The translations under genes were made by a program, and so were the position numbers. DNA of 63,913 nt from an uncultured Gammaproteobacteria bacterium (lineage in GTDB: Bacteria > Patescibacteriota > Patescibacteriia > UBA9934 > GWF2-40-263): positions 1-63,913 of the forward strand of contig CAYJWY010000001.1 of NCBI GenBank assembly GCA_964374035.1, read 5' to 3'. A model generated the notes under the pieces. The model did not search any database. It was not told where the DNA came from and saw nothing but the letters and a program-made list of their open reading frames with translations. Below are positions 3,271 through 63,913 of this stretch, piece after piece (position 1 is the stretch's first letter; every line of letters starts with the position of its first letter).

Positions 3271-3361
3271 CCTGTGTCATCTCGAGCGAAGTCGAGAGAT
3301 CTCGAATCGTCAGAAAATGGGATCTCTCCATTCCGCCTCGCTCCAGTCGAGATGACACAGG
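3271..3361. repeat. D-family long hairpin (GTCATC...GAGAGATC subtype)
   Basis: cctgtgtcatctcgagcgaagtcgagagatc ... gatctctccattccgcctcgctccagtcgagatgacacagg. Confidence 0.85.
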
Positions 3362-4540: not shown

Positions 4541-6043
4541 TTAAAAACTTCGCAAAAATTGAATCAATGTCCTGACCGGATGTCCGGTTGCCCCCTTTTG
4601 TTCGTAAGGACTGAACGGACGCTCCGCAAACGCTGGGCCTGCGATGTCGAGGTGAATCCAAGGCATGGCCTTGTCGACAAACTCTTGCAGAAACAATCCC
4701 GCGGTGAGTGCGCCGCCGTAACGGCCGCCGCCTATATTTTTTACATCGGCTACGTCAGAAACAATGAGCGGCTGGTAGGGCTTGTACAGTGGAAGTTCCC
4801 ACATCTGCTCCCCTGCCTGAGTCGATGCGATAAGCATACGTTGTGCCAATTCTGGGTTGTTCGACATTAGTCCCGTAATCTCCTCGCCAAGGGCAACCAT
4901 GCACGCACCGGTCAATGTTGCCAGATCGATGATCATGTCTGGTTTCAACTTGCCGGCGTACGTAAGCGTATCGGCAAGTGTGACGCGACCCTCCGCATCC
5001 GTATTCAAAATCTCAATCGTCTTTCCGTTCATTGCGGTGACAACGTCGCCGGGTCGAATCGCTTTGCCCGACGGCATGTTCTCGACGGCGCCAAAAATGC
5101 CGTGCACCTCGACGTTCGGCTGCAACTCGGAAAGAACGCTAAAGAGCCCGATCACCGCGGCCGCACCGCTCATGTCGATCTTCATCGTCATCATGCCGTC
5201 GGCAGGCTTGAGCGAAAGTCCACCCGAGTCGAACGTCACCGCCTTGCCCACAAACGCGACGACTTTCTTCGCCTTCTTCTTTGGTTTGTACGTAAGATGC
5301 ACCATGAACGGATCGTGATCCGAACCTTGGTTCACCGCAAGAATACCGCCGGCTCCCATCTTCTTGAGTTGTTCCTTGTTAAAAACTTTCACGCGAACAC
5401 CCACGTGCCCTTGCACAAGTTCCTTTGCAGAGGCAACTAAATCCTTCGGCGCCATGTGGAGTGCAGGCGTGTTGACGAGATCGCGAGCGACAATGGTTCC
5501 CGCGGCACAAAGTTGCGCGAGTTCCAGAGCGGCCTGGGCTTTGCGAAGGAATCGACCGTCGTCGAGAATCAGATCGAGTGCGTCGATCGGTGATTGCTTC
5601 TGTTTCTTTTTGTAACGACCATACGTGTACTCAGCGAGTCGAAAACCCTCGACCATCGCTTGAACAGATTCAATGGGATCAAGCTTGGCCTGACTCCATC
5701 CAAACGGAACGACAAGCACGCGCTTCAATCTTAATGAGGACAGCGCGTGATACGCCTGCGCGCTCGCGCGTCGAACCATCGCAACCGTGAGTTCATCCGT
5801 TGTACCCAGACCCACAACAAGCACGCGTTTCGCCGGAATGCGACCATCCAGACGGATCAACATCGTCGCGCCTTCCTTTGCTTTGAATCGATCTTCCTTG
5901 AGCACGTGGGCCAGGTGCGCATCGACCGCATCGTTGATCCTTGTTGAAAGCTGGGGCGCTTTCTTTGCATCCATGACCGCACCGATTACAAGCAAATCAC
6001 ACGCTTCCTCCGCAATCGTTCCTTTTCGAGTCGAAATAGTCAT
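4541..6043 (-). CDS. pepA: leucyl aminopeptidase (M17)
   Basis: NTDAEGRVTLADTLTYA and GKAVTFDSGGLSLKP are M17 signatures, and the 500-aa length fits. Confidence 0.9.
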   Translation of the reverse strand: MTISTRKGTIAEEACDLLVIGAVMDAKKAPQLSTRINDAVDAHLAHVLKEDRFKAKEGATMLIRLDGRIPAKRVLVVGLGTTDELTVAMVRRASAQAYHALSSLRLKRVLVVPFGWSQAKLDPIESVQAMVEGFRLAEYTYGRYKKKQKQSPIDALDLILDDGRFLRKAQAALELAQLCAAGTIVARDLVNTPALHMAPKDLVASAKELVQGHVGVRVKVFNKEQLKKMGAGGILAVNQGSDHDPFMVHLTYKPKKKAKKVVAFVGKAVTFDSGGLSLKPADGMMTMKIDMSGAAAVIGLFSVLSELQPNVEVHGIFGAVENMPSGKAIRPGDVVTAMNGKTIEILNTDAEGRVTLADTLTYAGKLKPDMIIDLATLTGACMVALGEEITGLMSNNPELAQRMLIASTQAGEQMWELPLYKPYQPLIVSDVADVKNIGGGRYGGALTAGLFLQEFVDKAMPWIHLDIAGPAFAERPFSPYEQKGATGHPVRTLIQFLRSF

Positions 6044-6113: not shown

Positions 6114-6241
6114 CAGACTGCCTGAGCCTGCTCGCCACTCGAAACGTTAGTCACCGACGCGCCAAAGCGCTATAGCGACGGCGCGCGGAGTGTGGTCGAA
6201 GGCCGCATTCCCCCTGCGAGTCCATTGTCCTGCGCTCAGGG
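6114..6241. repeat. F-family structured repeat, long form
   Basis: cctgagcctgctcgccactcg...caccgacgcgccaaagcgctatagcgacggcgcgcggagtgtggtcgaagg...ctgcgctcaggg. Confidence 0.85.
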
Positions 6242-24312: not shown

Positions 24313-24397
24313 ACGTTTTGGTGAAGAGGGCTAAGAGGCCGAAGATGGGGAAAGTGCTAAAATGTGTTATCCTCTTAGCCCTCCTCGCCATCTTACT

Positions 24398-25552
24398 ATG
24401 TCCCCTTGCCCACAAAAAGAACTTTGCGGATCGTGCTCGTGGTCGCACATTCCGTATGACAAGCAGTTGCAACAAAAGCTGTCGGATATCAACGGATCGT
24501 TTGCGTTGAAGGAGCTTGATTTCACGTGTGATAAAATCGTCGCTTCCCCGAAGACCGAACATTATCGCAACCGCATGGATTTTGTGATTGACTTTGAGGG
24601 GCGCGTTGGCATGCGCGAAACAAGAAAGTGGTGGAAGGTTATTGATAATCATACCTGCTTTCTTGCAGACGAAAAGATCGACGAAACATTTTCGCGCGTT
24701 CGAGATTGGGTGAAGACGAGCGGGCTGAGTTTTTACGATCGCAAGTCGCATGAAGGATTTTTGCGTTACGCGGTAATTCGATCAACGACGCTTGGTGAGA
24801 CGATGGTGAATCTTGTAACGAGTGCGCCGGTGAAGGATGAGGAGTGGCTCGATCAATCCAGTGCAACGCAACCTGGTTGCGTTCACGGCAACCAGGTTGC
24901 GTTGCCTTTATTCCCGCCGTGTACATCGCTGATGTGGTCGATCAACGATACGATGACCGACGTTTCATTCGGAAGCGACATTCGTACGCTCGCTGGCTCG
25001 AATACGATCGAAGAATCCATCGGTGGCATTCGTTATCGCATTAGTCCAAACGCATTCTTCCAAACAAACTCGTACGCGGCCCCCCTTCTGTTGAAAACCG
25101 TCGAGGAGTTCACGGGCGATATGGTGAACAAAACGCTTCTCGACCTGTATTGCGGTACTGGTTTCTTTGCAGTCGCGCTCGCGAACAAGACCAAACGTAC
25201 CGTCGGTGTCGAGATGGTCGACGAGGCGATTCACGACGCGGTCGAAAACGCGAAGTTGAACAACGTCGATGTCGAATTTCACGTCGCGAAGACAGAAGAC
25301 TTCAACTGGGCTGAGTACAACGCCGACATCGCAATCCTTGACCCGCCGCGCTCCGGCATGCATGATACGGCCCTCGCGGACGTTCTGAGGATCTTGCCCA
25401 AGGAAATCATCTATGTTTCCTGCAATCCAAAGAACTTCGCTCGCGAAATGGTACAATTACAGAAGCATTACCGCGTCGAGCGCATGCGCGCGATTGATAT
25501 GTTTCCCCATACGCCGCATGTGGAGCTCGTTACGAAGTTGAAACGTAAGTGA
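24398..25552 (+). CDS. RNA (uracil-5)-methyltransferase, RlmD/TrmA family
   Basis: An N-terminal CGSCSW Cys cluster, SPNAFFQTN, DLYCGTGFF, DPPRSGM and the C-terminal YVSCNP...DMFPHTPHVE. Confidence 0.8.
   Translation: MSPCPQKELCGSCSWSHIPYDKQLQQKLSDINGSFALKELDFTCDKIVASPKTEHYRNRMDFVIDFEGRVGMRETRKWWKVIDNHTCFLADEKIDETFSRVRDWVKTSGLSFYDRKSHEGFLRYAVIRSTTLGETMVNLVTSAPVKDEEWLDQSSATQPGCVHGNQVALPLFPPCTSLMWSINDTMTDVSFGSDIRTLAGSNTIEESIGGIRYRISPNAFFQTNSYAAPLLLKTVEEFTGDMVNKTLLDLYCGTGFFAVALANKTKRTVGVEMVDEAIHDAVENAKLNNVDVEFHVAKTEDFNWAEYNADIAILDPPRSGMHDTALADVLRILPKEIIYVSCNPKNFAREMVQLQKHYRVERMRAIDMFPHTPHVELVTKLKRK
24863..24905. repeat. G-family perfect hairpin inside rlmD
   Basis: gcaacgcaacctggttgc-gttcacg-gcaaccaggttgcgttgc is an 18-bp perfect stem, read through as ATQPGCVHGNQVAL. 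Confidence 0.85.
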
Positions 25553-25610
25553 CTAGTGACTGAGTGACTGGTGACTAATTTCAATCTCAGTCACTAGTCA
25601 CTCAGTCACT
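25548..25610. repeat. hairpin built from GTGACT repeats
   Basis: agtgact agtgactg agtgactg gtgacta - atttcaatc - tcagtcac tagtcac tcagtcact, between rlmD and era. Confidence 0.8.
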
Positions 25611-28271: not shown

Positions 28272-28439
28272 GAGACCTCTGAAAAACAGCGATCTTTCGT
28301 CTCACGGGCCTTCGCCCGCGATAGCGGGCTTCGGCCCGCGACGGCGGGCACCCGCCGACCCCACTCAAGGTAGTTTTCACTACCTTGAGTGGGGCTCGAC
28401 AGCCCGTTCAACGAAATCTCACCATTTTTCAGAGGTCTC
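28272..28439. repeat. 168-nt multi-hairpin structured element upstream of the HAD-like gene
   Basis: It is closed by the 15-bp stem gagacctctgaaaaa/tttttcagaggtctc. The internal hairpins are gggcc-ttc-gcccgc-gata-gcgggc-ttc-ggccc, ggcggg-cac-ccgcc and ccccactcaaggtag-ttttca-ctaccttgagtgggg. Confidence 0.75.
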
Positions 28440-28459: not shown

Positions 28460-29350
28460 ATGCTCGTGAATATTCGCATTTACAAGACCGTGGACGAAGC
28501 TCGCGAACTTCTCTCAGGAACCGAAGACCGTATCGTGACGAAACTGCAACCTGCGGAGATCCTCAAGCGCGCGCGCTGGATCAAGGCGGGAGCGTTCGAT
28601 TTCGATCAAAGTCTGGCGATCGGAAACCAGTGGCTTGAAATCGAGTCAATCGTTGGCTCTCACTACATTCAAGGAGAACAGAGTGATCGCGAGTGGTACC
28701 TTGAGCGTGCGCACGCAAATCACACCAACCACAAGGGTCCTATCGAAGACACCGACTGGTTCTTCGAGAAAACGGTTCTCGATAACCGTGCGGCGGTTGA
28801 AGGAGCGTGGGTTGCGCGATCCGTGAAACGCTTCGAGCAACAAGCTGTCATGGATTCAACCTTCGCCCATATCGGCAAACACATGACATTGCGTGACGGT
28901 GCTCGTGACTTGTTTGCACTCTTGGAAAAGCGTTTGGTGATCAGCATGGGTATCGAACAGTTGATTGCCGCCTCGTTGCAACACAATGGGATGAGCGCTG
29001 GCGTGATTGCCACCCGACTGGTGTTCAACAAGGAAAACACCGTCTCCGGCTGTCATCGCAACGTTGTTGTGAGCACCTCCAAGGGAGTCGCCCATCGACG
29101 TTTCGTTGAACTCTCTGAGATGCGGGTGAAACACCACTTGGTTCTGGGCGACTCCTACTTCGACATCCACATGATGCCACAGGGTGCGTTCAATGTGTGG
29201 ATTGTACCGCACAGCGACGTCGACAATGGGCTGGTAAACTATCGTGATGCGCACTTCGAGATCATGCTCGATCGCGCCACCATCGTTCTTTATTCAAACT
29301 CTCTGCTACCGCTGGTCATGTTGATCCGCGAAGCTCGCGCAGGCATGTAA
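28460..29350 (+). CDS. HAD-superfamily hydrolase-like protein
   Basis: FDFDQSL fits the DxDx(T/S) motif I and LGDSYFDIHM fits the GDxxxD motif IV. GTG at 28466 is an alternative start. Confidence 0.5.
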   Translation: MLVNIRIYKTVDEARELLSGTEDRIVTKLQPAEILKRARWIKAGAFDFDQSLAIGNQWLEIESIVGSHYIQGEQSDREWYLERAHANHTNHKGPIEDTDWFFEKTVLDNRAAVEGAWVARSVKRFEQQAVMDSTFAHIGKHMTLRDGARDLFALLEKRLVISMGIEQLIAASLQHNGMSAGVIATRLVFNKENTVSGCHRNVVVSTSKGVAHRRFVELSEMRVKHHLVLGDSYFDIHMMPQGAFNVWIVPHSDVDNGLVNYRDAHFEIMLDRATIVLYSNSLLPLVMLIREARAGM

Positions 29351-29394: not shown

Positions 29395-29520
29395 TCAGAC
29401 TCGATGAGAGCCTGCTCGCCACTCGTGGCCTTGGTCACCGACGCGCCAAAGCGCTATGGCGACGGCGCGCGAAGTGTGGTCGAAAGCGCACTCCGACATT
29501 CCCCTTCGACAGGCTCAGGG
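29395..29520. repeat. F-family structured repeat, long form
   Basis: gagcctgctcgccactcg...caccgacgcgccaaagcgctatggcgacggcgcgcgaagtgtggtcgaaag...cgacaggctcaggg. It is near-identical to 6121..6200. Confidence 0.85.
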
Positions 29521-29537
29521 AATATTTAGGTGCATGA

Positions 29538-30761
29538 TTAATCGATGATCGCTCCCCCGAGCATGATGTCGCCGTCGTAAAAGACAATCGACTGTCCGGG
29601 CGTGACGGCGCGTTGTGGTTCCAAAAATTCGACTCCGACGCGGTCGCCGTCGATCGCGACGATCGTGCAGTCTTGTACCTCTTGGCGATAACGTATGCGG
29701 GATTGACACCGAAGAAATGTTGACGAATCTGTCCGATCGAACATCTTTGTCAACATTTCTTTATCGAACCAATTTGCCTTCGATGCGGTTAGGCTTTTTT
29801 TGTATAGCGATGGATGGTAGTTACTTGAAACGATCAACTCCTTCGTCTTGGGTCGCTTATCGACCACGTAGTACGGGGCTCCTCCGCCAACGTTCAGTCC
29901 GTGTCGCTGGCCATGTGTGTAAAAATTTATTCCGCGATGCGTTCCAATCACCTTCCCTTCTGTTGTCACGATCGGACCCGGGTCCTCGGAAATGCGCGCG
30001 AGCAGAAACTCACTCATATCGACCTCACCGACGAAGCAGATACCGACGCTGTCTTTTTTCTCGGCGTTGTCGAGTCCGAGCTCGCGAGCCTTCTGCCGAA
30101 CCTCCGGCTTCGTCATCTCTCCGATCGGAAACAAAACGCGATGAATCACAGCTGGATCGATGGCCCACAAGAAATAGGATTGATCTTTATTTGTATCGAC
30201 TCCCTTCAAAATGATTGCGTGCGGTGAGACTGGGGTGTTGTCGGAGGCAACGACGGCGACAGTCCCATCGTCGCCAGGGCTCTGATGGGCAGGCCGGCGG
30301 CTCGGAGACAATACCCCAGTCTCACCACTTCGAACGCGAGCATAATGCCCCGTAGCAATATACGCACACCCAAGCCGATCCGCCTCCTTCACAAACACAT
30401 CAAACTTCACAAACTTGTTACACATCACATCCGGATTTGGTGTGCGACCTTTTTCAAACTCCGCGAACATGTACTCGACCACATCACGGCGATACTCCGT
30501 CTCAAAGTCGAGCGTCAGAAATGGAATGCCCAACTTCGCGGCCACACGCGCGGCAGCACGGCGTTCCTCTTTCCATCCGCATTCTTGAAACTCTTCACCG
30601 ACGTTGTTGGCGTCCTTCGCGCGAGATCCACACACATCGCCAGACCAATTTTTCATGAACGCACCAATCACTTCATACCCAGCCTCCAACAACAAAGCCG
30701 CCGACACACTTGAGTCGACGCCGCCAGACATACCGAGGAGGACTCTAGGTTTGGGAGTCAT
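29538..30761 (-). CDS. mnmA: tRNA 2-thiouridine(34) synthase MnmA, carrying an in-frame repeat insertion
   Basis: GMSGGVDSSVSA (PP-loop), IATGHYAR, KDQSYFLW and DSVGICFVG. An extra 35-aa loop is encoded by repeat H1. Confidence 0.9.
   Translation of the reverse strand: MTPKPRVLLGMSGGVDSSVSAALLLEAGYEVIGAFMKNWSGDVCGSRAKDANNVGEEFQECGWKEERRAAARVAAKLGIPFLTLDFETEYRRDVVEYMFAEFEKGRTPNPDVMCNKFVKFDVFVKEADRLGCAYIATGHYARVRSGETGVLSPSRRPAHQSPGDDGTVAVVASDNTPVSPHAIILKGVDTNKDQSYFLWAIDPAVIHRVLFPIGEMTKPEVRQKARELGLDNAEKKDSVGICFVGEVDMSEFLLARISEDPGPIVTTEGKVIGTHRGINFYTHGQRHGLNVGGGAPYYVVDKRPKTKELIVSSNYHPSLYKKSLTASKANWFDKEMLTKMFDRTDSSTFLRCQSRIRYRQEVQDCTIVAIDGDRVGVEFLEPQRAVTPGQSIVFYDGDIMLGGAIID
30223..30326. repeat. 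H-family element inserted in frame in mnmA
   Basis: The termini are ggtgagactggggt and accccagtctcacc. The core cgacagtcccatcgtcgccagggctctgatgggcaggccggcggctcggagaca is shared with 55335..55442. Confidence 0.85.
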
Positions 30762-37239: not shown

Positions 37240-39288
37240 CTACGACTTTTTTACATTAAAGAGAGAGGGCTTTTGGAACATCTTCCATTGCAACAAGCTC
37301 ATTGAGTACACACGCGCAACCGTGATTGCAGAGAACATGCTTAACAACACACCGATGGAAAGCGTCAACGCAAAGCCACGGATAAAACTTGAGCTAAACC
37401 AATACAAGACAACAGCGGCAATCAGCGTGGTGAGATTTCCGTCGCGGATGGCGTTCCATGCACGACGAAAAGCTTCGTCAAGCGCGGAGAGATATCCGCG
37501 ACCCGCACTCAATTCTTCTTTGAAGCGTTCAATAATAAGAACGTTTGCGTCTACAGCAATACCAAGCGACAAAACAAATCCGGCAATGCCTGCAAGTGTT
37601 ATCGTGACGTCAAACAAGCGATACATGGCCAGGTTAAGTGACGCGAAAAAGAATAACGCAATGACGGCAATGAATCCTGCAAATCGATATACGACGACCA
37701 TGTAAATCGCAACAAACAAAAATCCGTAAAGCGCGGCGGTAACACTCTGTTGCAAAGAGACGATGCCGAGTGTTGGTCCGATACGTTGCTGGGAGAGAAG
37801 ATTCACAGGAACAGGAAGCGCACCCGCGTTGAGACGCTGAGCAAGGAGCTTGGATTCTTCGATCGTGAAGTTGCCGGTAATCACAGCCTGTCCACCGTAA
37901 ATCGCGGTTTGGACAACCGGAGCCGAGATGACTTGGCCATCGAGAAATATACCGATTGGCTGTCCGACAAGAGATGTGGTCAGGGCACCGAATAAATCGC
38001 CGCCCTCTTTATCAAACTGAATGGAAACAAGCGGAGCGTTCGTATTGGGATCAAATTGAACGGTTGCACTCTGCAAATGCTTTCCGGAAAGCTCTGTATT
38101 CACCCAAGGTGAGCTTGGCGGCAGGATGTCGAACTCATTGGAACGTGGCAGGACGATGCGTTTGATATCGTATGTCACGGCATCACGCTCGTCAGATTTG
38201 TAAATGATGTGATAACCGAATTCGGTTTCGATCGAGGTCGTTGTGATCTCACCCTTAACCAATGCGGCGGCGGCCAAACGAAACGCATCAACGTATCGAC
38301 TTCCCATCGCCCATCCAAGATCACCACCGTTTGTCACGGCGGAAGGATCGTTTGATTTCTCTTTTGCAATCTGTGCAAAGTTTTCAGGCGTGACTTCCTT
38401 TAAGATCGTTTGGATTTGCAGAGATGCATCGAGATCGGAAATGGGATTTTCACACCCCGTCTTTCCTTCAAAACAAATCAGAATGTGAGAAAGTTTCATT
38501 TCTTTTTCAATCTTCTGGTCGTCGAGTCGTAAGATGTTAAATCCGTCGGACGTTTCAACGATCGTGCGGTTCACCTGACCTTTTTTCAACCTAGACGTTT
38601 TGATTGAATCCACAAACGGGGATCCTGCTTCGTCAGCTGTGACACCTTTTAAGATGCCGCGCTGTTCGTTCTGCGGTTCGATGGTGTTTTCCGCGAGCAA
38701 TGCGTCGAAATCCTCACCCTGTAACGCGCGAGCCAGAACAGCATCGGCTTGCTTACGCTCCGCAAGATTGCGCGCAGAAAGATCAGCCTTCTCTTCTGCG
38801 GTAAGATCACGTTCTAATTGTTGACCTTGCTTCTTAAATTCCAGCACCGGTGTTTCTCCAATTTGCGCGATGGCGTCAGATACATTCAACACACCCGCGA
38901 GTTCAACAATCACTCGATAGGTTCCACCCGTTGAGGTCGTCTGCACAATTGGTTCAGAAACACCAAAAGCATTCACGCGACGTTCGATGACATCGCGAAC
39001 ACCCTCGAGGGCTTCACCTTTTTGTGTTTCTGGAATCTGTTTCATGTCGGCCTCATAAATGAGATGTGTGCCACCTTGAAGATCTAGCCCCAAACGAAAC
39101 GGACGCTCTGGAAGTTTCACCATTTGTGGGATGGCAAGGCGATCCACGACCTGATTCCATACGCCTGGAAAGTCATAGACAAATAAACCTAGGGTCGAAA
39201 ACAGAAAAAAAATAGCCAGAACTCGCGCGGTCCAGGGCTTGTGTTCCTTCTTTTTTTGAGCCTTTTTCTTTACTTTCCATGTTTGCAT
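37240..39288 (-). CDS. secD: protein translocase subunit SecD with an inserted parvulin-type PPIase module
   Basis: The SecD framing is LGLDLQGGTHLIYEA, RVNAFGVSEPIVQ and the C-terminal six-TM SecD/F core. Residues ~155-395 are extra and contain HILI...GGDLGW...FGYHIIYK. Confidence 0.85.
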   Translation of the reverse strand: MQTWKVKKKAQKKKEHKPWTARVLAIFFLFSTLGLFVYDFPGVWNQVVDRLAIPQMVKLPERPFRLGLDLQGGTHLIYEADMKQIPETQKGEALEGVRDVIERRVNAFGVSEPIVQTTSTGGTYRVIVELAGVLNVSDAIAQIGETPVLEFKKQGQQLERDLTAEEKADLSARNLAERKQADAVLARALQGEDFDALLAENTIEPQNEQRGILKGVTADEAGSPFVDSIKTSRLKKGQVNRTIVETSDGFNILRLDDQKIEKEMKLSHILICFEGKTGCENPISDLDASLQIQTILKEVTPENFAQIAKEKSNDPSAVTNGGDLGWAMGSRYVDAFRLAAAALVKGEITTTSIETEFGYHIIYKSDERDAVTYDIKRIVLPRSNEFDILPPSSPWVNTELSGKHLQSATVQFDPNTNAPLVSIQFDKEGGDLFGALTTSLVGQPIGIFLDGQVISAPVVQTAIYGGQAVITGNFTIEESKLLAQRLNAGALPVPVNLLSQQRIGPTLGIVSLQQSVTAALYGFLFVAIYMVVVYRFAGFIAVIALFFFASLNLAMYRLFDVTITLAGIAGFVLSLGIAVDANVLIIERFKEELSAGRGYLSALDEAFRRAWNAIRDGNLTTLIAAVVLYWFSSSFIRGFALTLSIGVLLSMFSAITVARVYSMSLLQWKMFQKPSLFNVKKS
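38191..38499 (-). other. parvulin (PpiC/PrsA/SurA-type) rotamase domain embedded in SecD
   Basis: KLSHILICFEG...FAQIAKEKSNDPSAVTNGGDLGWAMGSRYVDAF...GEITTTSIETEFGYHIIYKSDE matches the rotamase consensus position by position. Confidence 0.8.
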
Positions 39289-39660: not shown

Positions 39661-39710
39661 ATATCGCTACCCGGTAGCGAGTAGATCTTATCGCTACCGG
39701 GTAGCGATAT
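39661..39710. repeat. pair of REP-like hairpins (inverted pair) 3' of the RAYT-like gene
   Basis: atatcgctacCCGgtagcga (39661..39680) and its exact reverse complement tcgctacCGGgtagcgatat (39691..39710), separated by 10 nt. Confidence 0.85.
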
Positions 39711-40389
39711 CTTCAATTAATTCTGGGTATGAGTTGCGTACTGACCACAATTGAAGTGCTTGCGTGTAGTCATGAGTCGACCTAAACATCTTGTTGGCAA
39801 GTTCAGCATTAACAATTGGCAACGTTTGACCGAAACCGCGAAAAAACGTGTGGCTTGACCACGGATAATGATCCATCATGTTAAGTGCGTCAAACCAGTT
39901 CGTAACAATGCCATCTCTCCAGGAATGCCCAGTTAGATCTAAAATATTCAGGTGAATATACAAGATGATATATTCAAAATATGCCTCGTTATTTATATGT
40001 TTAGCGTAAAATCTTCCCTCAAACATGGTTCCCTTTCGATCATTGGCGTGATTGTAAGACCAACTATAGGCCTTATTTACTTTGTGGAGAAATTTAGAAA
40101 TGCCTCCGTCCTGTTCTTGACGTAAAAGAAAGTGATAATGATTTGGTAATAATGTCCAGCTAACAATTGATACAAATTGCTCTCGATCAATATCGAAAAG
40201 ATGGTGGCCTGTAATTTTTGCGATTTTCTCGAATGGGTCACCTGAGTGACGATACTTTGAATCATTAAAAAGATAGAGTGATTCGACAAAGCGTTGGTAA
40301 TCGCCGCTACAGTCAAAAATGCGTCGCTTGTCCACGCCACGCAGATACACATGGTAATACTCACCATTTACGAAAGAAATCTCTCTCAT
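39694..40389 (-). mobile_element. IS200/IS605-like Y1 (HUH) transposase, REP-associated (RAYT-like)
   Basis: The HUH motif is LLPNHYHFLL. The C-terminal region FEGRFYAKHI...YFEYIILYIHLN contains the candidate catalytic Tyr. No tnpB is present, and the gene is flanked on both sides by paired hairpins. Confidence 0.7.
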
Positions 40390-40410: not shown

Positions 40411-40460
40411 CCGCTACCCGGTAGCGATATGAATGTTATTCGCTACCGGGTAGCGATATT
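40411..40460. repeat. pair of REP-like hairpins 5' of the RAYT-like gene
   Basis: ccgctacCCGgtagcgatat (40411..40430) and tcgctacCGGgtagcgatatt (40440..40460). The core is the same as at 39661..39710. Confidence 0.85.
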
Positions 40461-42278: not shown

Positions 42279-45113
42279 TTAAGCGCCGTGGCATTTTTTG
42301 AATTTTTTTCCACTTCCGCATGGGCATGGTTCGTTGCGACCCGCCTTCGCTGGGGCTTTGGCGGGCGAGCCTGCTTTTTCGCTTACCGCACCTCCCTTGA
42401 ACCCCCCTTGAGAAAGCTGGAGCTTCGTTTCTCCCTTGTCCGCTCCAGCCATCACAACGCCAGTTCGACTCAAAAGAGACGTGTTTAACTCCGCCTGGAC
42501 GTTCATATCCACGGCGTGATGGGCGTACTTGAAGAATGTGTAGGCGATTTCTTGGTTGATGGAACTGAGGAGCGTCTGGAAGATATTGAAGCCTTCGCGT
42601 TTGTATTCGATGAGTGGATCGCGTTGGCCGTAACCTTGTAGGCCAATGCCGGTGCGAAGGGCGCGCATCGCCTCGAGGTGGTCGATCCAGAGCATGTCGA
42701 TCGCGCGCAGGATAACGGCTTTTTCGACGAGATGGAGGTCTTTGATTTCTGGGAGGGACTGCGTGAGTTTGTCGTATTGCTCCGTGATCACAGACATGAT
42801 CGCTTCGATCAGCTGTGTACGACCCTGCGCAAGCGACTGTTTGTCGTGTGAAACGTTGATCGAAAGTTCTTCAATCTGTTTGCGTTGTTGCTGAGAAAAT
42901 GCAACGATCGTCTGCATGGTCTGAAGAATTTCTGCGATGTTCCAGGTTGTGTTCACGGTTGATGATGTTGTGTCATTTTTGTGTTCAACAAATTCACCGG
43001 TGTGAAACAGAACAACTTGTTCAACTTCTCCTTCGATGATATCGAGGATGCGCATGCGTAAATCCTCGGGGTCATCCGTAAAGGTTGTTAAAACTTCAAG
43101 ACGCCGCGCGTAGATCACTTCGCGGTGTTTGTTCAAGACATCATCGTATTCCAAGATGTGTTTGCGCGAATCGAAGTGGTGGCCTTCCACGCGCATCTGC
43201 GCCTTTTCGACGGCTCCTGTAATCATCTTATTTTCGATCGGCATCTCGTCGGGAATCCCCAGGCGATCCATGAGGCCGCGTGTGCGATCGGAGCCGAAGA
43301 TACGCATGAGGTCGTCCTCCATCGAGATGTAAAACTGCGTGAGACCCGGATCACCTTGTCGACCGGAGCGGCCGCGAAGCTGGTTGTCGATGCGGCGTGA
43401 TTCGTGACGCTCCGTGCCGATCACATAGAGTCCGCCGAGGTCCTTCACGCGTTTCTCTTCCTCGGGATTCGTCGGATTTCCACCCAGCTTAATATCAACA
43501 CCGCGGCCTGCCATGTTGGTTGCAAGCGTCACGGCACCAACACGGCCCGCTTGAGCGATGATCTCGGCCTCGCGTTCATGATTTTTCGCATTCAAAATTT
43601 CATGTCGCACACCGGCGTTGTCAAGCAACGTATGCAGGAGTTCGTTCTTTTCAACCGACGCCGTACCAATCAAAACCGGCTGACCTCGCTCACTGGCCGC
43701 TTTCACTTCTTCGATCACTGAGAGGTATTTCCCTTTCTCATTTTTAAAAATCTTATCGCCTCGATCTATGCGCGTGACCGGTTGGTTCGTGGGAATTTCA
43801 ACGACTTCGAGCTGATAAATCTTGGAAAACTCCTCGGCTTCTGTCGATGCCGTACCCGTCATGCCGGCGAGCTTTTCGTACATCCGAAACAAATTTTGAA
43901 ACGTAATGGTCCCGAGTGTTTGGCTCTCGCGTTGGATTTCCACCTTTTCTTTTGCTTCGATCGCTTGGTGAATGCCTTCGGAGAATCGTCGACCAGGCAT
44001 AAGACGGCCCGTAAACTCATCGACGATGATCACCTCACCATCTTTGACGATATAGTGGACGTCCTTGTGATAGTTCGCGCGTGCGCGAAGCGCTGTGTCT
44101 GCGTAGCGCTGGTACTGGCCTTGTTCGATCGCGTACAGGTTGTCGATACCCAGAGCTTTCTCGATGCGATCGATACCGGATTCCGACAGCGTCGCTGTTC
44201 GCATCTTCTCATCGACATTGAAGTCTTCATGTTCTTTGAGCGTATTTGCGATGTCGGCAAATCGATAATAGAGATCATTCGATTTTTCCGCCGGCGCGGA
44301 AATAATGAGCGGTGTACGAGCCTCGTCGATCAAGATGGAATCGATTTCGTCGATGATGGCGTATGGCATACCACGCATCACGGTTTGATCAACGTCGGAC
44401 GCCATGTTGTCACGCAAGTAATCGAAACCGAACTGATTGTTGGTGCCATACGTAATGTCAGCGGCGAAGGATTCGCGACGACTGCAAGGTCGAAGAAATT
44501 CGTCGTGGATTTGGAACGATTCGGTTCCTAGTTCCTCTTCGTTTGCAGTCGCGACCCCCTCTAACTCCCCCTTGGCAAGGGGGAGAACAGGCTTCGTGTG
44601 ACTTGTTCGATACGATGGATCGTAAAGATAACTATCGAACTGTTGAATACAACCTACGCTTAGGCCGAGGAAATGAAAAATCTGTCCCATCCAGACGCAA
44701 TCGCGCTTTGCCAAATAATCGTTTACGGTGACGAGGTGTGCGCCTTTGGCGCTCAGAGCATTTGTATAAAGGGCAAGCGTCGAAGTCAACGTCTTTCCTT
44801 CGCCCGTACGCATTTCCGCGATCTGTCCTCGATGCAAAATGAGTCCGCCGATCAATTGAACATCGAAGTGTCGCTGATTGATTGTTCGTTTGGCGGCTTC
44901 ACGCACAACCGCGAAGGCTTCGTGAAGAACAGCGTCAACGGTCTCCCCTGCTTCGAGCCGTTTTTTAAACTCCAAGGTTTTCGCCTTGAGTTCATCGTCG
45001 ACGAGCTTGGAAATGTTTGGTTCAAACGCATTGATCTTTGAAACTTCCTTTTGAAGTTCGGTTAACAACCGCTTGTTTGGATCGCCAAAGAGAATCTTTA
45101 GAACCTTGCTCAT
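42279..45113 (-). CDS. secA: preprotein translocase ATPase SecA with an enlarged loop before the PPXD
   Basis: MRTGEGKTLT, DITYGTNNQFGFDYLRDNM, DEIDSILIDEARTPLIIS, TNMAGRGVDI and the C-terminal zinc finger CPCGSGKKFKKCHG. Confidence 0.95.
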   Translation of the reverse strand: MSKVLKILFGDPNKRLLTELQKEVSKINAFEPNISKLVDDELKAKTLEFKKRLEAGETVDAVLHEAFAVVREAAKRTINQRHFDVQLIGGLILHRGQIAEMRTGEGKTLTSTLALYTNALSAKGAHLVTVNDYLAKRDCVWMGQIFHFLGLSVGCIQQFDSYLYDPSYRTSHTKPVLPLAKGELEGVATANEEELGTESFQIHDEFLRPCSRRESFAADITYGTNNQFGFDYLRDNMASDVDQTVMRGMPYAIIDEIDSILIDEARTPLIISAPAEKSNDLYYRFADIANTLKEHEDFNVDEKMRTATLSESGIDRIEKALGIDNLYAIEQGQYQRYADTALRARANYHKDVHYIVKDGEVIIVDEFTGRLMPGRRFSEGIHQAIEAKEKVEIQRESQTLGTITFQNLFRMYEKLAGMTGTASTEAEEFSKIYQLEVVEIPTNQPVTRIDRGDKIFKNEKGKYLSVIEEVKAASERGQPVLIGTASVEKNELLHTLLDNAGVRHEILNAKNHEREAEIIAQAGRVGAVTLATNMAGRGVDIKLGGNPTNPEEEKRVKDLGGLYVIGTERHESRRIDNQLRGRSGRQGDPGLTQFYISMEDDLMRIFGSDRTRGLMDRLGIPDEMPIENKMITGAVEKAQMRVEGHHFDSRKHILEYDDVLNKHREVIYARRLEVLTTFTDDPEDLRMRILDIIEGEVEQVVLFHTGEFVEHKNDTTSSTVNTTWNIAEILQTMQTIVAFSQQQRKQIEELSINVSHDKQSLAQGRTQLIEAIMSVITEQYDKLTQSLPEIKDLHLVEKAVILRAIDMLWIDHLEAMRALRTGIGLQGYGQRDPLIEYKREGFNIFQTLLSSINQEIAYTFFKYAHHAVDMNVQAELNTSLLSRTGVVMAGADKGETKLQLSQGGFKGGAVSEKAGSPAKAPAKAGRNEPCPCGSGKKFKKCHGA
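44565..44585. repeat. 21-nt palindrome inside secA
   Basis: ctcccccttg-g-caagggggag, translated as PLAKGE. A second 8-bp stem, gttcgata/tatcgaac, lies at 44605..44640. Confidence 0.8.
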
Positions 45114-50817: not shown

Positions 50818-50855
50818 CTGGCTACCTGGTTGCTGATCGGCAACCAGGTAGCCAG
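50818..50855. repeat. G-family perfect hairpin upstream of folD
   Basis: ctggctacctggttgc-tgatcg-gcaaccaggtagccag is a 16-bp stem. It shares acctggttgc/gcaaccaggt with the rlmD copy. Confidence 0.85.
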
Positions 50856-63777: not shown

Positions 63778-63866
63778 TCCGTCATCCTGAGTGCATCCGA
63801 AGGATCTCTTGTGACAAAGACGTTCATAAAATCCAGAGATTCTTCGGGTGCACTCAGAATGACGAA
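63778..63866. repeat. D-family hairpin (GAAGGATC subtype)
   Basis: tccgtcatcctgagtgcatccgaaggatctc ... gagattcttcgggtgcactcagaatgacgaa. Confidence 0.8.
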
Positions 63867-63881
63867 TGGAAACTCGTTGTT

Positions 63882-63913
63882 GTCTGTCATCATGAGTGCA
63901 TCCGAAGGATCTC
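63882..63913. repeat. D-family hairpin, left arm only (window end)
   Basis: tgtctgtcatcatgagtgcatccgaaggatctc is nearly identical to 63778..63811. Confidence 0.7.

What the first reader, a model, noticed from the sequence alone, without database searches (positions are those of the whole stretch)
30223..30326. Hairpin repeat read through in frame inside mnmA (RPE-like coding insertion)
A 104-nt segment of mnmA is bounded by a perfect 14-bp inverted repeat, ggtgagactggggt / accccagtctcacc. This extends to 20 bp with one mismatch. Its roughly 68-nt centre recurs with only a handful of mismatches in the ybaB-recR spacer (55335..55442). In mnmA it is translated without interruption as GETGVLSPSRRPAHQSPGDDGTVAVVASDNTPVSP. 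It sits exactly between the conserved IATGHYAR and L-x-G-x-D-x-x-KDQSYFL blocks. From memory, that connector is only about ten residues in characterised MnmA. A non-coding palindromic element that has colonised a core tRNA-modification gene while keeping the frame is the behaviour known for Rickettsia palindromic elements. I am not aware of it being described for reduced CPR-type genomes.
Basis: partly seen in the sequence, partly recalled or inferred. Interest (0 to 1): 0.72.

Follow-up and report, generated by a model that had tools for sequence, protein, structure and literature searches.

The report
Translated hairpin repeat inside mnmA
A 104-base hairpin-forming repeat sits in frame inside the tRNA-modification gene mnmA of an Uhrbacteria (CPR) genome and appears to be translated as a floppy 35-residue loop, the behaviour known from Rickettsia palindromic elements but apparently not yet described for this lineage.

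Summary
Window 30223-30326 is a 20-bp-stem hairpin (14 bp perfect) inside mnmA (29538-30761, minus strand). It reads through in frame as 35 residues. Its 78-nt core recurs at 88% identity in the ybaB-recR spacer.

- **Absent elsewhere:** solved MnmA structures lack the segment, and 66 of the 120 closest homologues have only the basic 12-residue connector.
- **Structure:** AlphaFold models the segment as a disordered loop at a beta-hairpin tip.
- **Same family in other genomes:** a 74-nt form lacking the central 30 nt lies at the same mnmA site in two related genomes. It also lies in frame, in the same reading frame, in tgt of another metagenome contig.
- **Stems covary:** 14 of 28 pairs changed on both sides, and window versus L003 shows 5 of 5 arm substitutions at paired positions (P=6e-5). 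The peptide evolves faster than the host protein.
- **Constraint:** maintenance therefore acts on the nucleic acid, not the peptide.
- **Hot spot:** 54 of 120 homologues have a longer connector in this loop, many resembling other palindromic repeat families.
- **Possible mobiliser:** the window also holds a RAYT-like Y1 transposase with REP doublets, one of them in frame in another tRNA-modification gene. No link to the mnmA element was shown.

Verdict: a real RPE/REPIN-like coding palindrome, a new member of a known kind. How it moves is unproven.

The parts
29538..30761 (-). mnmA (tRNA 2-thiouridine synthase), 407 aa, host gene
   Evidence: ORF. Pfam tRNA_Me_trans, _M and _C domains. Homologues named MnmA from Cand. 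Uhrbacteria. AF2 model matches MnmA 2hma/2det with TM 0.89 normalised to the target.
30223..30326 (-). The hairpin element, mnmA copy, 'long form' of 104 nt. Translated in frame as residues 146-180 (35 codons, 30222-30326).
   Evidence: CM R1 scores 89 bits on the + strand.
30223..30242 (.). Left arm of the outer stem (20 nt)
   Evidence: I7. Covaries with the right arm among five copies.
30307..30326 (.). Right arm of the outer stem (20 nt)
   Evidence: I7.
30233..30310 (.). Conserved core shared with the ybaB-recR copy (78 nt, 88% identity)
   Evidence: D2.
30264..30293 (.). Central 30-nt hairpin module (CCCATCGTCGCCAGGGCTCTGATGGGCAGG on the + strand). Present in both window copies. Exactly absent from the 'short form' copies in L001, L003 and L019.
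55335..55442 (+). Second copy of the element (long form) in the ybaB-recR intergenic spacer. Same orientation on the + strand, so sense to that operon but antisense to mnmA.
   Evidence: I9. CM R1 scores 71 bits. ybaB and recR confirmed by Pfam.
55378..55407 (.). Central 30-nt module of the second copy (28 of 30 identical to 30264-30293)
29712..29761 (-). Second, unrelated in-frame palindrome inside mnmA (25-nt arms, 84% complementary). It encodes ~KEMLTKMFDRTDSSTF in the C-terminal domain, a stretch absent from most homologues.
   Evidence: I14; (alignment columns 401-435). Fold -23.9 kcal/mol, z = -4.3.

Best explanation
The segment is one copy of a small dispersed family of hairpin-forming (palindromic) repeat elements. 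The family is non-autonomous and 74-108 nt long, with about 20-bp outer arms, an imperfect inner stem and an optional 30-nt apical hairpin.

One copy landed in frame, without stop codons, at the tip of a surface beta-hairpin of MnmA in an ancestor of several Uhrbacteria lineages. It has been carried there ever since. It is most probably transcribed and translated with the gene and yields a disordered 35-residue loop that the enzyme tolerates.

The element persists as a nucleic-acid hairpin. Substitutions in one arm are matched in the other, while the encoded peptide drifts.

**Shown:** the repeat, the hairpin, the in-frame position, its absence from most orthologues, copies in other loci and genes, covariation, and the disordered model.

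**Inferred:** translation of the segment and near-neutrality for the enzyme.

**Speculative:**
- Spread and maintenance through a single-stranded-DNA hairpin mechanism. This could be a REPIN/RAYT-like Y1 transposase, or template-switch correction of quasi-palindromes, which is established knowledge and was not tested here.
- Gene conversion between copies within a genome.
For: **Dispersed family.** The core recurs at 55347-55424 at 88% identity. A short-form copy sits in frame in tgt on metagenome contig L019 at 1413-1486. It has the same orientation and the same reading frame (GDVSTLSPGRRTVAVVPSDTIKTSP), at a site where solved Tgt proteins have about 20 fewer residues.

**Orthologous copies.** Copies lie at the same mnmA site in L001 and L003. 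A decayed remnant, the 5' arm only, is found in L028.

**Loop is an addition.** 66 of 120 close homologues have a 12-residue connector. PDB MnmA chains lack the segment.

**Structure.** AF2 mean pLDDT is 87.5, but only 42-46 across residues 151-180. There is no secondary structure between strands 141-144 and 183-186.

**Hairpin is maintained.**
- 93.6% of cells are paired.
- 14 of 28 pairs changed on both sides.
- 0 of 500 shuffles reached this; slid controls gave 34-52% paired.
- Window versus L003: all 5 substitutions in each arm fall at paired positions, P = 6.4e-5.

**Constraint is on nucleotides, not peptide.** Insert nucleotide identity is equal to or above the rest of the gene (0.75-0.88 versus 0.72-0.75). 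Amino-acid identity falls to 0.52-0.56 against 0.81-0.85 for the rest of the gene.

**Translation is likely.** All indels inside coding copies are multiples of three: a 30-nt module and a 9-nt duplication. The frame is open in every copy.

**Permissive loop.** 54 of 120 homologues carry longer connectors. Those checked at the DNA level are mostly other palindromes (L006, L014, L015). The L006 family also occurs intergenically in this window.

**Y1 transposase in the same genome.** A RAYT-like gene with REP doublets is in the window, and one doublet lies in frame in another gene.
Against: - Only three independent loci of the family were found: mnmA, ybaB-recR and tgt.
- The scan of species-representative genomes gave only chance hits.
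- The CM found no further copies in the window or in 71 kb of relatives' DNA. Copy number and current mobility are therefore unknown.
- There is no target-site duplication, and only 5-8 terminal nucleotides are conserved among independent copies.
- The arms are unrelated to the REPs that flank the RAYT-like gene, so no mobilising enzyme is linked to this element.
- No transcript or peptide data were available.
- The two window copies share the long form and an 88%-identical core but have diverged arms, while orthologues are short form. A simple 'one old insertion' history does not explain this.
Confidence: 0.75

Rival explanations
1. The hairpin is a selected functional RNA (or single-stranded DNA) structure rather than selfish or neutral DNA. 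Possible roles include an mRNA-stability or processing site, a ribosome-pausing signal, or an antisense or small RNA. The protein loop would be a by-product.
For: Strong covariation of the stem. The nucleotide sequence is more conserved than the peptide. Stem mismatches are biased: 9 are G.U-compatible on the window + strand against 2 on the other strand. That is what strand-specific pairing would give.
Against: The two window copies have opposite orientation relative to transcription, antisense in mnmA and sense in ybaB-recR. No promoter-like or terminator-like site accompanies either copy. There is no Rfam match. The G.U bias recurs at the same stem positions (14-15), so it may be inherited rather than independent. 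Many homologues manage without any insert, and others carry unrelated palindromes at the same loop. Templated correction of quasi-palindromes can produce paired changes without selection (established knowledge, not tested here).
Confidence: 0.15
2. The loop is a lineage-specific functional extension of MnmA, for example a partner- or tRNA-binding loop. The nucleotide palindrome would be incidental.
For: The insert is retained in frame in at least three lineages. The same reading frame is used in tgt.
Against: The same nucleotide core occurs in an intergenic spacer. Peptide identity in the insert is far below that of the host protein. The segment is modelled as disordered. The closest relative (P0002/L006) has an unrelated palindromic insert at the site, and P0005 has only a remnant. 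A search of 1.84 billion representative proteins with the peptide found no related protein module.
Confidence: 0.06
3. The segment is not translated. It would be removed from the mRNA (intron-like, or RNase III cleavage followed by ligation) or skipped by the ribosome, as in T4 gene 60 or the yeast-mitochondrial 'byp' elements.
For: A very stable hairpin of about -60 kcal/mol lies within a coding sequence. Byp elements are GC-rich hairpin repeats in coding genes (own knowledge).
Against: Every coding copy is a multiple of three and free of stops in the host frame. Length differences between orthologues (30 nt, 9 nt) are also multiples of three. Removal or bypass would not need any of this. There is no ribozyme or intron match in Rfam.
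Confidence: 0.03
4. The segment is an assembly or chimera artefact.
For: Repeats and hairpins can cause misassembly. The Logan contig breaks at a nearby repeat.
Against: An identical gene sequence appears in two independent assemblies. Homologous inserts occur at the same site in relatives from several other samples and assemblers.
Confidence: 0.01

Closest known systems
Rickettsia palindromic elements (RPEs; Ogata et al. 2000 and 2002, as summarised in PMC10969869)
   Same: Both are dispersed palindromic repeats of about 100-150 bp. Copies lie both between genes and in frame inside unrelated housekeeping genes. Both encode a family-typical peptide in a preferred frame, at positions compatible with the protein fold. 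Both occur in a reduced genome.
   Different: The host lineage is unrelated (Cand. Uhrbacteria, CPR) and no sequence relationship is known. This element is shorter (74-108 nt). It has a modular central hairpin, and its stem shows clear paired substitutions between orthologues. Only three loci are known so far, against dozens for RPEs.
REPINs (REP doublets forming hairpins) mobilised by RAYT Y1 transposases (PMC3116915, PMC3337134)
   Same: Both are symmetrical long hairpins of about 100 nt made of two inverted arms and a spacer. Compensatory changes across the hairpin are common, and there is no target-site duplication. A RAYT-like gene flanked by REP doublets is present in the same window.
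   Different: REPIN arms are the most conserved part and match the REPs flanking the RAYT. Here the core is more conserved than the arms, and the arms do not match the RAYT-flanking REPs. REPINs are extragenic, whereas this copy is coding.
Intragenic MITEs that make in-frame fusions (Coxiella QMITE, PMC5896051; intragenic ERIC and BOX elements, cited in PMC10969869)
   Same: All are small non-autonomous repeats with open frames found inside genes.
   Different: Classical MITEs have conserved terminal inverted repeats and target-site duplications. No duplication is seen here.
Coding palindromes in Nematomorpha mitochondrial genes (PMC6649704)
   Same: Both are long hairpin-forming inverted repeats kept within protein-coding sequence.
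   Different: Those are in an organelle. According to that abstract both arms encode conserved protein regions, so they are not dispersed insertions into loops.
Translational-bypass 'byp' elements of Magnusiomyces mitochondria and T4 gene 60 (own knowledge)
   Same: Both are hairpin repeats lodged in coding sequence and not removed at the DNA level.
   Different: Byps break the frame and are skipped by the ribosome. This element keeps the frame in every copy.

Membership tests
RPE-like coding palindrome (functional class) | Dispersed repeat: the same nucleotide element at several unrelated loci | tested here: met
   Found at mnmA and ybaB-recR in the window and at tgt in L019. Only three independent loci are known.
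RPE-like coding palindrome (functional class) | Palindromic, forming a hairpin | tested here: met
   Fold z = -5.3 and -6.4. 93.6% of cells paired across five copies.
RPE-like coding palindrome (functional class) | Inserted in frame in housekeeping ORFs without stops, with a preferred frame | tested here: met
   mnmA and tgt use the same frame and orientation. All indels are multiples of three.
RPE-like coding palindrome (functional class) | Insertion at a site compatible with the protein fold (surface loop) | tested here: met
   In the AF2 model the insert has pLDDT 42-46 and is unstructured, between strands 141-144 and 183-186, while the rest of the model is confident. Distance to the tRNA or the active site was not measured.
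RPE families RPE-1 to RPE-10 (membership proper) | Sequence homology to a Rickettsia RPE consensus; host in the Rickettsiales | tested here: not met
   The host is Cand. Uhrbacteria, judged from the names of the closest MnmA homologues. Sequence homology to RPE consensus sequences could not be tested because none were at hand.
REPIN/RAYT system | Two inverted arms plus a spacer forming a hairpin of about 100 nt, with compensatory changes | tested here: met
   Definition taken from PMC3116915.
REPIN/RAYT system | Arms are the REP sequence that flanks a RAYT gene in the same genome | tested here: not met
   The RAYT-like gene at 39694-40389 is flanked by GCTACCCGGTAGC doublets, which are unrelated to GGTGAGACTGGGG.... 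Other RAYT genes elsewhere in the genome cannot be excluded.
REPIN/RAYT system | Extragenic and at high copy number | tested here: inconclusive
   One of the two window copies is coding. Copy number cannot be judged from 64 kb.
Classical MITE | Target-site duplication flanking the element | tested here: not met
   No direct repeat was seen when reading the flanks of the mnmA, ybaB-recR and tgt copies.
Classical MITE | Terminal inverted repeats conserved among copies and shared with an autonomous IS | tested here: inconclusive
   Only GGTGA.../...TCACC (5-8 nt) is shared among independent copies. No IS with such ends is present in the window.
Intron or translational-bypass element | Interrupts the reading frame or carries stops, so that removal or bypass is required | tested here: not met
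   The frame is open and the length is a multiple of three in all coding copies.
Any curated RNA family (Rfam 15) | Match at the gathering score | tested here: not met
   No hits in the whole window. Only sub-threshold miRNA-hairpin noise at E-values up to 10.

The most novel reading that the evidence does not exclude
Uhrbacteria, and perhaps CPR bacteria generally, may carry active REPIN-like single-stranded-DNA hairpin elements, some served by RAYT-type Y1 transposases. These would routinely settle in frame in permissive loops of conserved enzymes. The hairpin, not the peptide, would be the unit under selection on one strand. Such elements would then be a major, overlooked source of the lineage-specific insertions seen in CPR proteins. 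Here, 54 of the 120 closest MnmA homologues carry a longer connector at this one loop.
Probability: 0.2. Interest if true: 0.75.

Novelty: new member of a known kind. Interest (0 to 1): 0.55.

Why it matters
- **Origin of protein insertions.** CPR proteins are known for unexplained lineage-specific insertions. This case ties one of them to a dispersed nucleotide hairpin repeat, with orthologous, paralogous and decayed copies available for comparison.
- **Where selection acts.** A hairpin can be maintained by paired substitutions inside an essential coding sequence while the encoded peptide drifts. That is a clean natural example of nucleic-acid-level maintenance overriding peptide-level conservation.
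- **Practical consequences.** Such inserts inflate protein lengths, break assemblies, seed spurious ORFs and can mislead alignments and phylogenies of marker genes.
- **An experimental handle.** The co-occurring RAYT-like gene, whose REP doublet lies in frame in another tRNA-modification gene, offers a way to test how such elements move.

Tried and rejected
- **Peptide searches, large database.** A concatenate of all six reading frames and a five-sequence peptide alignment returned no scored hit, not even the source protein.
- **Peptide search, HMMER.** The full search of 1.84 billion representative proteins with the 35-residue peptide gave two low-complexity hits that I judged irrelevant without inspecting them.
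- **Genome scan.** An exact-pattern scan of 185,579 species-representative genomes gave six hits, all chance or coding matches in unrelated GC-rich bacteria.
- **Viral scan.** Only chance hits were found.
- **Metagenome scan.** Four hits were returned, of which only L019 was genuine.
- **Phage and plasmid BLAST.** No match.
- **Rfam.** Nothing at gathering score or at E-values up to 10.
- **Covariance model R1.** No extra copies, only generic hairpins.
- **Self-cleaving ribozyme, intron or bypass element.** Considered and rejected on frame conservation and the absence of motifs.
- **Precise target site in mnmA.** Rejected because different inserts begin at different codons of the connector.
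- **Other inverted repeats inside window ORFs.** Those in pepA (5068-5202), secDF (37441-37502) and secA (42399-42466) were judged chance, because the Pfam domains show no extra length there.
- **RPE paper.** PMC186582 is not held in the library.
Full report
**1. The observation**

The sequence is as described. On the + strand, ggtgagactggggt (30223-30236) and accccagtctcacc (30313-30326) are a perfect 14-bp inverted repeat. They extend to 20-nt arms with one mismatch.

The 116-nt segment folds at about -63 to -66 kcal/mol on either strand, with z = -5.3 and -6.4. No shuffle did as well.

A 78-nt core (30233-30310) recurs at 55347-55424 at 88% identity in the same orientation. Diagnostic sub-patterns occur only at these two places, and no shuffle gave two matches.

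The host ORF, 29538-30761 on the minus strand, is mnmA. It has all three Pfam MnmA domains. Its closest homologues are annotated MnmA of Candidatus Uhrbacteria or Patescibacteria.

The segment is read through as GETGVLSPSRRPAHQSPGDDGTVAVVASDNTPVSP, between IATGHYAR and ILKGVDTNKDQSYFL.

The second copy lies in the 120-nt spacer between ybaB (55029-55328) and recR (probable ATG at 55449). Pfam confirms both genes.

An independent Logan assembly of run ERR3478686 contains an identical mnmA including the insert. It is therefore not an assembly artefact.

**2. The loop is an addition to MnmA**

HMMER splits the alignment to solved MnmA chains (9hlv, 2hma, 2der) into residues 4-150 and 184-407. About two residues of the solved chains correspond to query residues 151-183.

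Among the 120 closest homologues, 66 have a 12-residue connector between HYAR and NKDQ. The window protein has 48 residues there.

An AlphaFold2 model built on those 120 sequences is confident overall, with mean pLDDT 87.5 and pTM 0.86. It matches MnmA structures with a target-normalised TM of 0.89. Residues 151-180 have pLDDT 42-46 and no secondary structure. They bulge from the turn between strands 141-144 and 183-186.

I could not measure how far the loop lies from the tRNA or the active site.

**3. The same element elsewhere**

I retrieved DNA of the closest orthologues.

- **L001 (P0003) and L003 (P0004).** MnmA is 77-80% identical. Both carry the element at the same site as a 74-nt 'short form'. 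It lacks exactly the central 30 nt (30264-30293 in the window), which themselves form a small hairpin.
- **L028 (P0005).** Only a remnant of the 5' arm is kept, and there is no hairpin.
- **L006 (P0002).** This is the closest relative. It has an unrelated palindrome (GTCATCCTGAG...GAAGGATCTC family) in the same loop. That family occurs intergenically in this window at 58624-58689 and 63780-63913.

One exact-pattern scan of JGI metagenomes yielded a genuine third locus, contig Ga0209211_10087851 (L019). A short-form copy at 1413-1486 lies in frame in tgt (Pfam TGT).

- It has the same orientation relative to the gene and the same reading frame as in mnmA.
- It encodes GDVSTLSPGRRTVAVVPSDTIKTSP. 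Compare GEAGALSPSRRTVTVVPSDNTPVSP in P0003.
- It sits between WAKRCKDSFQR and LLFGIVQGG, where solved Tgt proteins have about 20 fewer residues.

The family is thus known from three independent loci, two coding and one intergenic, in at least two organisms.

A covariance model built from the five copies found no more in the window or in 71 kb of relatives' DNA.

**4. What is conserved is the hairpin, not the peptide**

On the five-copy alignment the proposed structure has a 20-bp outer stem plus an 8-bp imperfect inner stem.

- It is paired in 93.6% of cells.
- 14 of 28 pairs changed on both sides.
- None of 500 column shuffles reached any of the observed measures.
- Sliding the partner by 1-3 columns drops pairing to 34-52%.

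Between the orthologous copies of the window and L003, each arm has five substitutions and all five fall at paired positions (hypergeometric P = 6.4e-5). L003 versus the tgt copy gives 9 of 9, P = 6e-5.

The inner stem also contains one G-C to A-U double change.

Nucleotide identity in the insert equals or exceeds that of the rest of mnmA (0.75-0.88 against 0.72-0.75). Amino-acid identity drops to 0.52-0.56 against 0.81-0.85 in comparisons with L003. Most nucleotide changes in the insert are therefore non-synonymous. The peptide is weakly constrained while the pairing is kept.

Either selection on a nucleic-acid structure or templated correction of quasi-palindromes during replication would give this pattern. 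The latter is established mutational knowledge and was not tested here.

Stem mismatches are mostly A.C on the gene-sense strand, which is G.U on the window + strand: 9 against 2. This hints at strand-specific pairing. The bias recurs at stem positions 14-15, so it may simply be inherited.

**5. Is it translated?**

There are no expression data. Several features point to read-through.

- Every coding copy is open in the host frame.
- Copy lengths are 105 nt and 75 nt. The L003 insert is three codons longer through a 9-nt duplication at its 5' edge.
- The differences between orthologues, a 30-nt module and that 9-nt duplication, are multiples of three.

An intron or a ribosomal-bypass element would not need this. 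I therefore rate read-through translation as likely and removal or bypass as unlikely.

**6. Independent function as an RNA gene?**

- Rfam gives nothing at gathering score or up to E = 10.
- Neither copy has an associated promoter-like or terminator-like site.
- The two window copies have opposite orientation relative to the genes they sit in or between.

A regulatory role of the hairpin cannot be excluded, but nothing specific supports it.

**7. Context: a genome rich in palindromes, and a Y1 transposase**

The MnmA loop is a hot spot. 54 of the 120 homologues have longer connectors (16-56 residues). Many have peptide signatures that, from my own experience of such sequences, resemble translated palindromic repeats (…SCHPEER…, …SLRAKRSNP…EIASV…, …CEPANLRTCEP…).

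Five further orthologues with a different insert were folded.

- L006 folds strongly (z = -4.8) and L015 moderately (z = -2.7).
- L014 shows a long terminal stem by eye (TGTCATT...AATGACA), but its z is only -0.8.
- L016 (z = -2.0) and L013 (z = -1.6) fold weakly.

The inserts begin at different codons of the connector. This looks like a permissive loop rather than a specific target site.

The window's own mnmA carries a second, unrelated in-frame palindrome at 29712-29761.

The window also contains a RAYT-like IS200-family Y1 transposase at 39694-40389 on the minus strand.

- Pfam Y1_Tnp scores 30 bits, above its cut-off.
- NCBIfam REP-associated tyrosine transposase scores 43 bits, below its cut-off.
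- There is a weak match to E. coli TnpA-REP (4er8).
- An HUH motif (NHYHF) and a candidate catalytic Tyr are present.
- The gene is flanked on both sides by inverted doublets of GCTACC(C/G)GGTAGC.
- The cassette is missing from the syntenic Nramp-SecD interval of L003.

The pattern GCWACCNGGTWGC occurs 8 times, always as doublets, against 0.24 expected. One doublet (24863-24905, 18-bp perfect stem, z = -8.9) is in frame in a tRNA U5-methyltransferase-like gene. It is absent from both relatives' orthologues.

REP-type hairpins associated with a Y1 transposase therefore do enter coding sequence in frame in this genome. The arms of the mnmA element do not resemble these REPs, however. A link between this enzyme and the mnmA element is speculation.

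**8. Comparison with known systems**

Functionally this matches Rickettsia palindromic elements as summarised in PMC10969869. Those are dispersed palindromic repeats found both between genes and in frame within unrelated housekeeping genes. They use a characteristic frame, at positions compatible with the fold.

It is not a member of the RPE families. The host is different and no homology is known.

Architecturally it resembles REPINs: a hairpin of about 100 nt made of two inverted arms and a spacer, common compensatory changes and no target-site duplication (PMC3116915). It fails the defining link to RAYT-flanking REPs, and here the core is more conserved than the arms.

It lacks the target-site duplication of classical MITEs.

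Literature searches of the held library found no description of in-frame palindromic repeats in CPR/Patescibacteria.

**9. Unresolved**

Both window copies are long form with an 88%-identical core but arms only about 50% alike. The orthologous mnmA copies and the tgt copy are short form. Three explanations remain open, and five copies cannot decide between them:

- gene conversion between copies within a genome;
- re-insertion at the same site;
- mobility of the 30-nt apical module itself.

**10. Verdict**

The feature is a genuine in-frame, hairpin-preserving repeat element. It is a new member of the RPE/REPIN-like kind in a lineage where this seems undescribed.

It is of moderate interest on its own (0.55). 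It would be more interesting if a genome-wide census shows it is part of a general mechanism that generates CPR protein insertions.

Noticed in passing
window 39694-40389 (-), with 39661-39710 and 40412-40460: A RAYT-like IS200-family Y1 transposase. Pfam Y1_Tnp is above its cut-off, NCBIfam REP_Tyr_transpos is below its cut-off, and there is a weak match to E. coli TnpA-REP (4er8). The HUH motif NHYHF is present. The gene is flanked on both sides by inverted doublets of GCTACC(C/G)GGTAGC. The cassette is absent from the syntenic Nramp-SecD interval of relative L003. I found no report of RAYT/REP systems in CPR in the papers checked.
   Followed up: partly
window 24863-24905, inside ORF 24362-25552 (+): An 18-bp perfect palindrome (-37 kcal/mol, z = -8.9) of the same GCWACCNGGTWGC type as the RAYT-flanking REPs. 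It lies in frame (ATQPGCVHGNQVAL) in a tRNA U5-methyltransferase-like gene. Both relatives' orthologues (L001, L003) lack the 12-residue insertion.
   Followed up: partly
window 50818-50855: Another GCWACCNGGTWGC inverted doublet, about 50 nt upstream of where the FolD Pfam domain starts. It is probably in the 5' leader of folD.
   Followed up: no
window 29712-29761 (inside mnmA): A second, unrelated in-frame palindrome (25-nt arms, 84% complementary, z = -4.3). It encodes an insertion of about 15 residues in the C-terminal domain of MnmA. Other Uhrbacteria MnmA carry different inserts at this site and at a third site (alignment A2, columns 400-435 and 455-495).
   Followed up: partly
window 6121-6211, 29405-29495, 59581-59679: An intergenic repeat family of about 80-90 nt (90% identity between the first two copies) with no strong fold (z about -1). 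The copy at 29405-29495 lies just downstream of mnmA, and the independent Logan contig L027 ends inside it.
   Followed up: partly
window 58624-58689 and 63780-63913; also 3271-3361 and 54976-55008: Copies of the GTCATCCTGAG...GAAGGATCTC palindromic family and of a related GTCATCTCGAGCGAAGTCGAGAGATCTC variant. The first family fills the MnmA loop of the closest relative (L006).
   Followed up: partly
120 closest MnmA homologues (alignment A5): 54 of 120 have an enlarged connector (16-56 residues) at the same loop. The inserts are diverse, and many look like translated palindromic repeats. The loop is a recurrent insertion hot spot across Uhrbacteria.
   Followed up: partly
L019 885-2087 (tgt), residues about 301-334: Besides the element copy, this Tgt has a second stretch with no counterpart in solved Tgt structures (…QDPSTIDFFQPKADPPLAENNSLSPTWYKQL…). 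It may be another repeat-derived insertion.
   Followed up: no
window 25548-25610 and 28272-28439: An AGTGACT-rich hairpin between the methyltransferase-like gene and era. Separately, a large inverted repeat (43-nt arms, 82 nt apart) lies in the spacer before ORF 28460-29350.
   Followed up: no
L016 5222-5259: In a more distant Uhrbacterium, the ybaB-recR spacer holds a different small palindrome (GGGGATTAGGGGCTAACCCCTAATCCCC). This spacer too seems to be a recurrent landing place for hairpin repeats.
   Followed up: no
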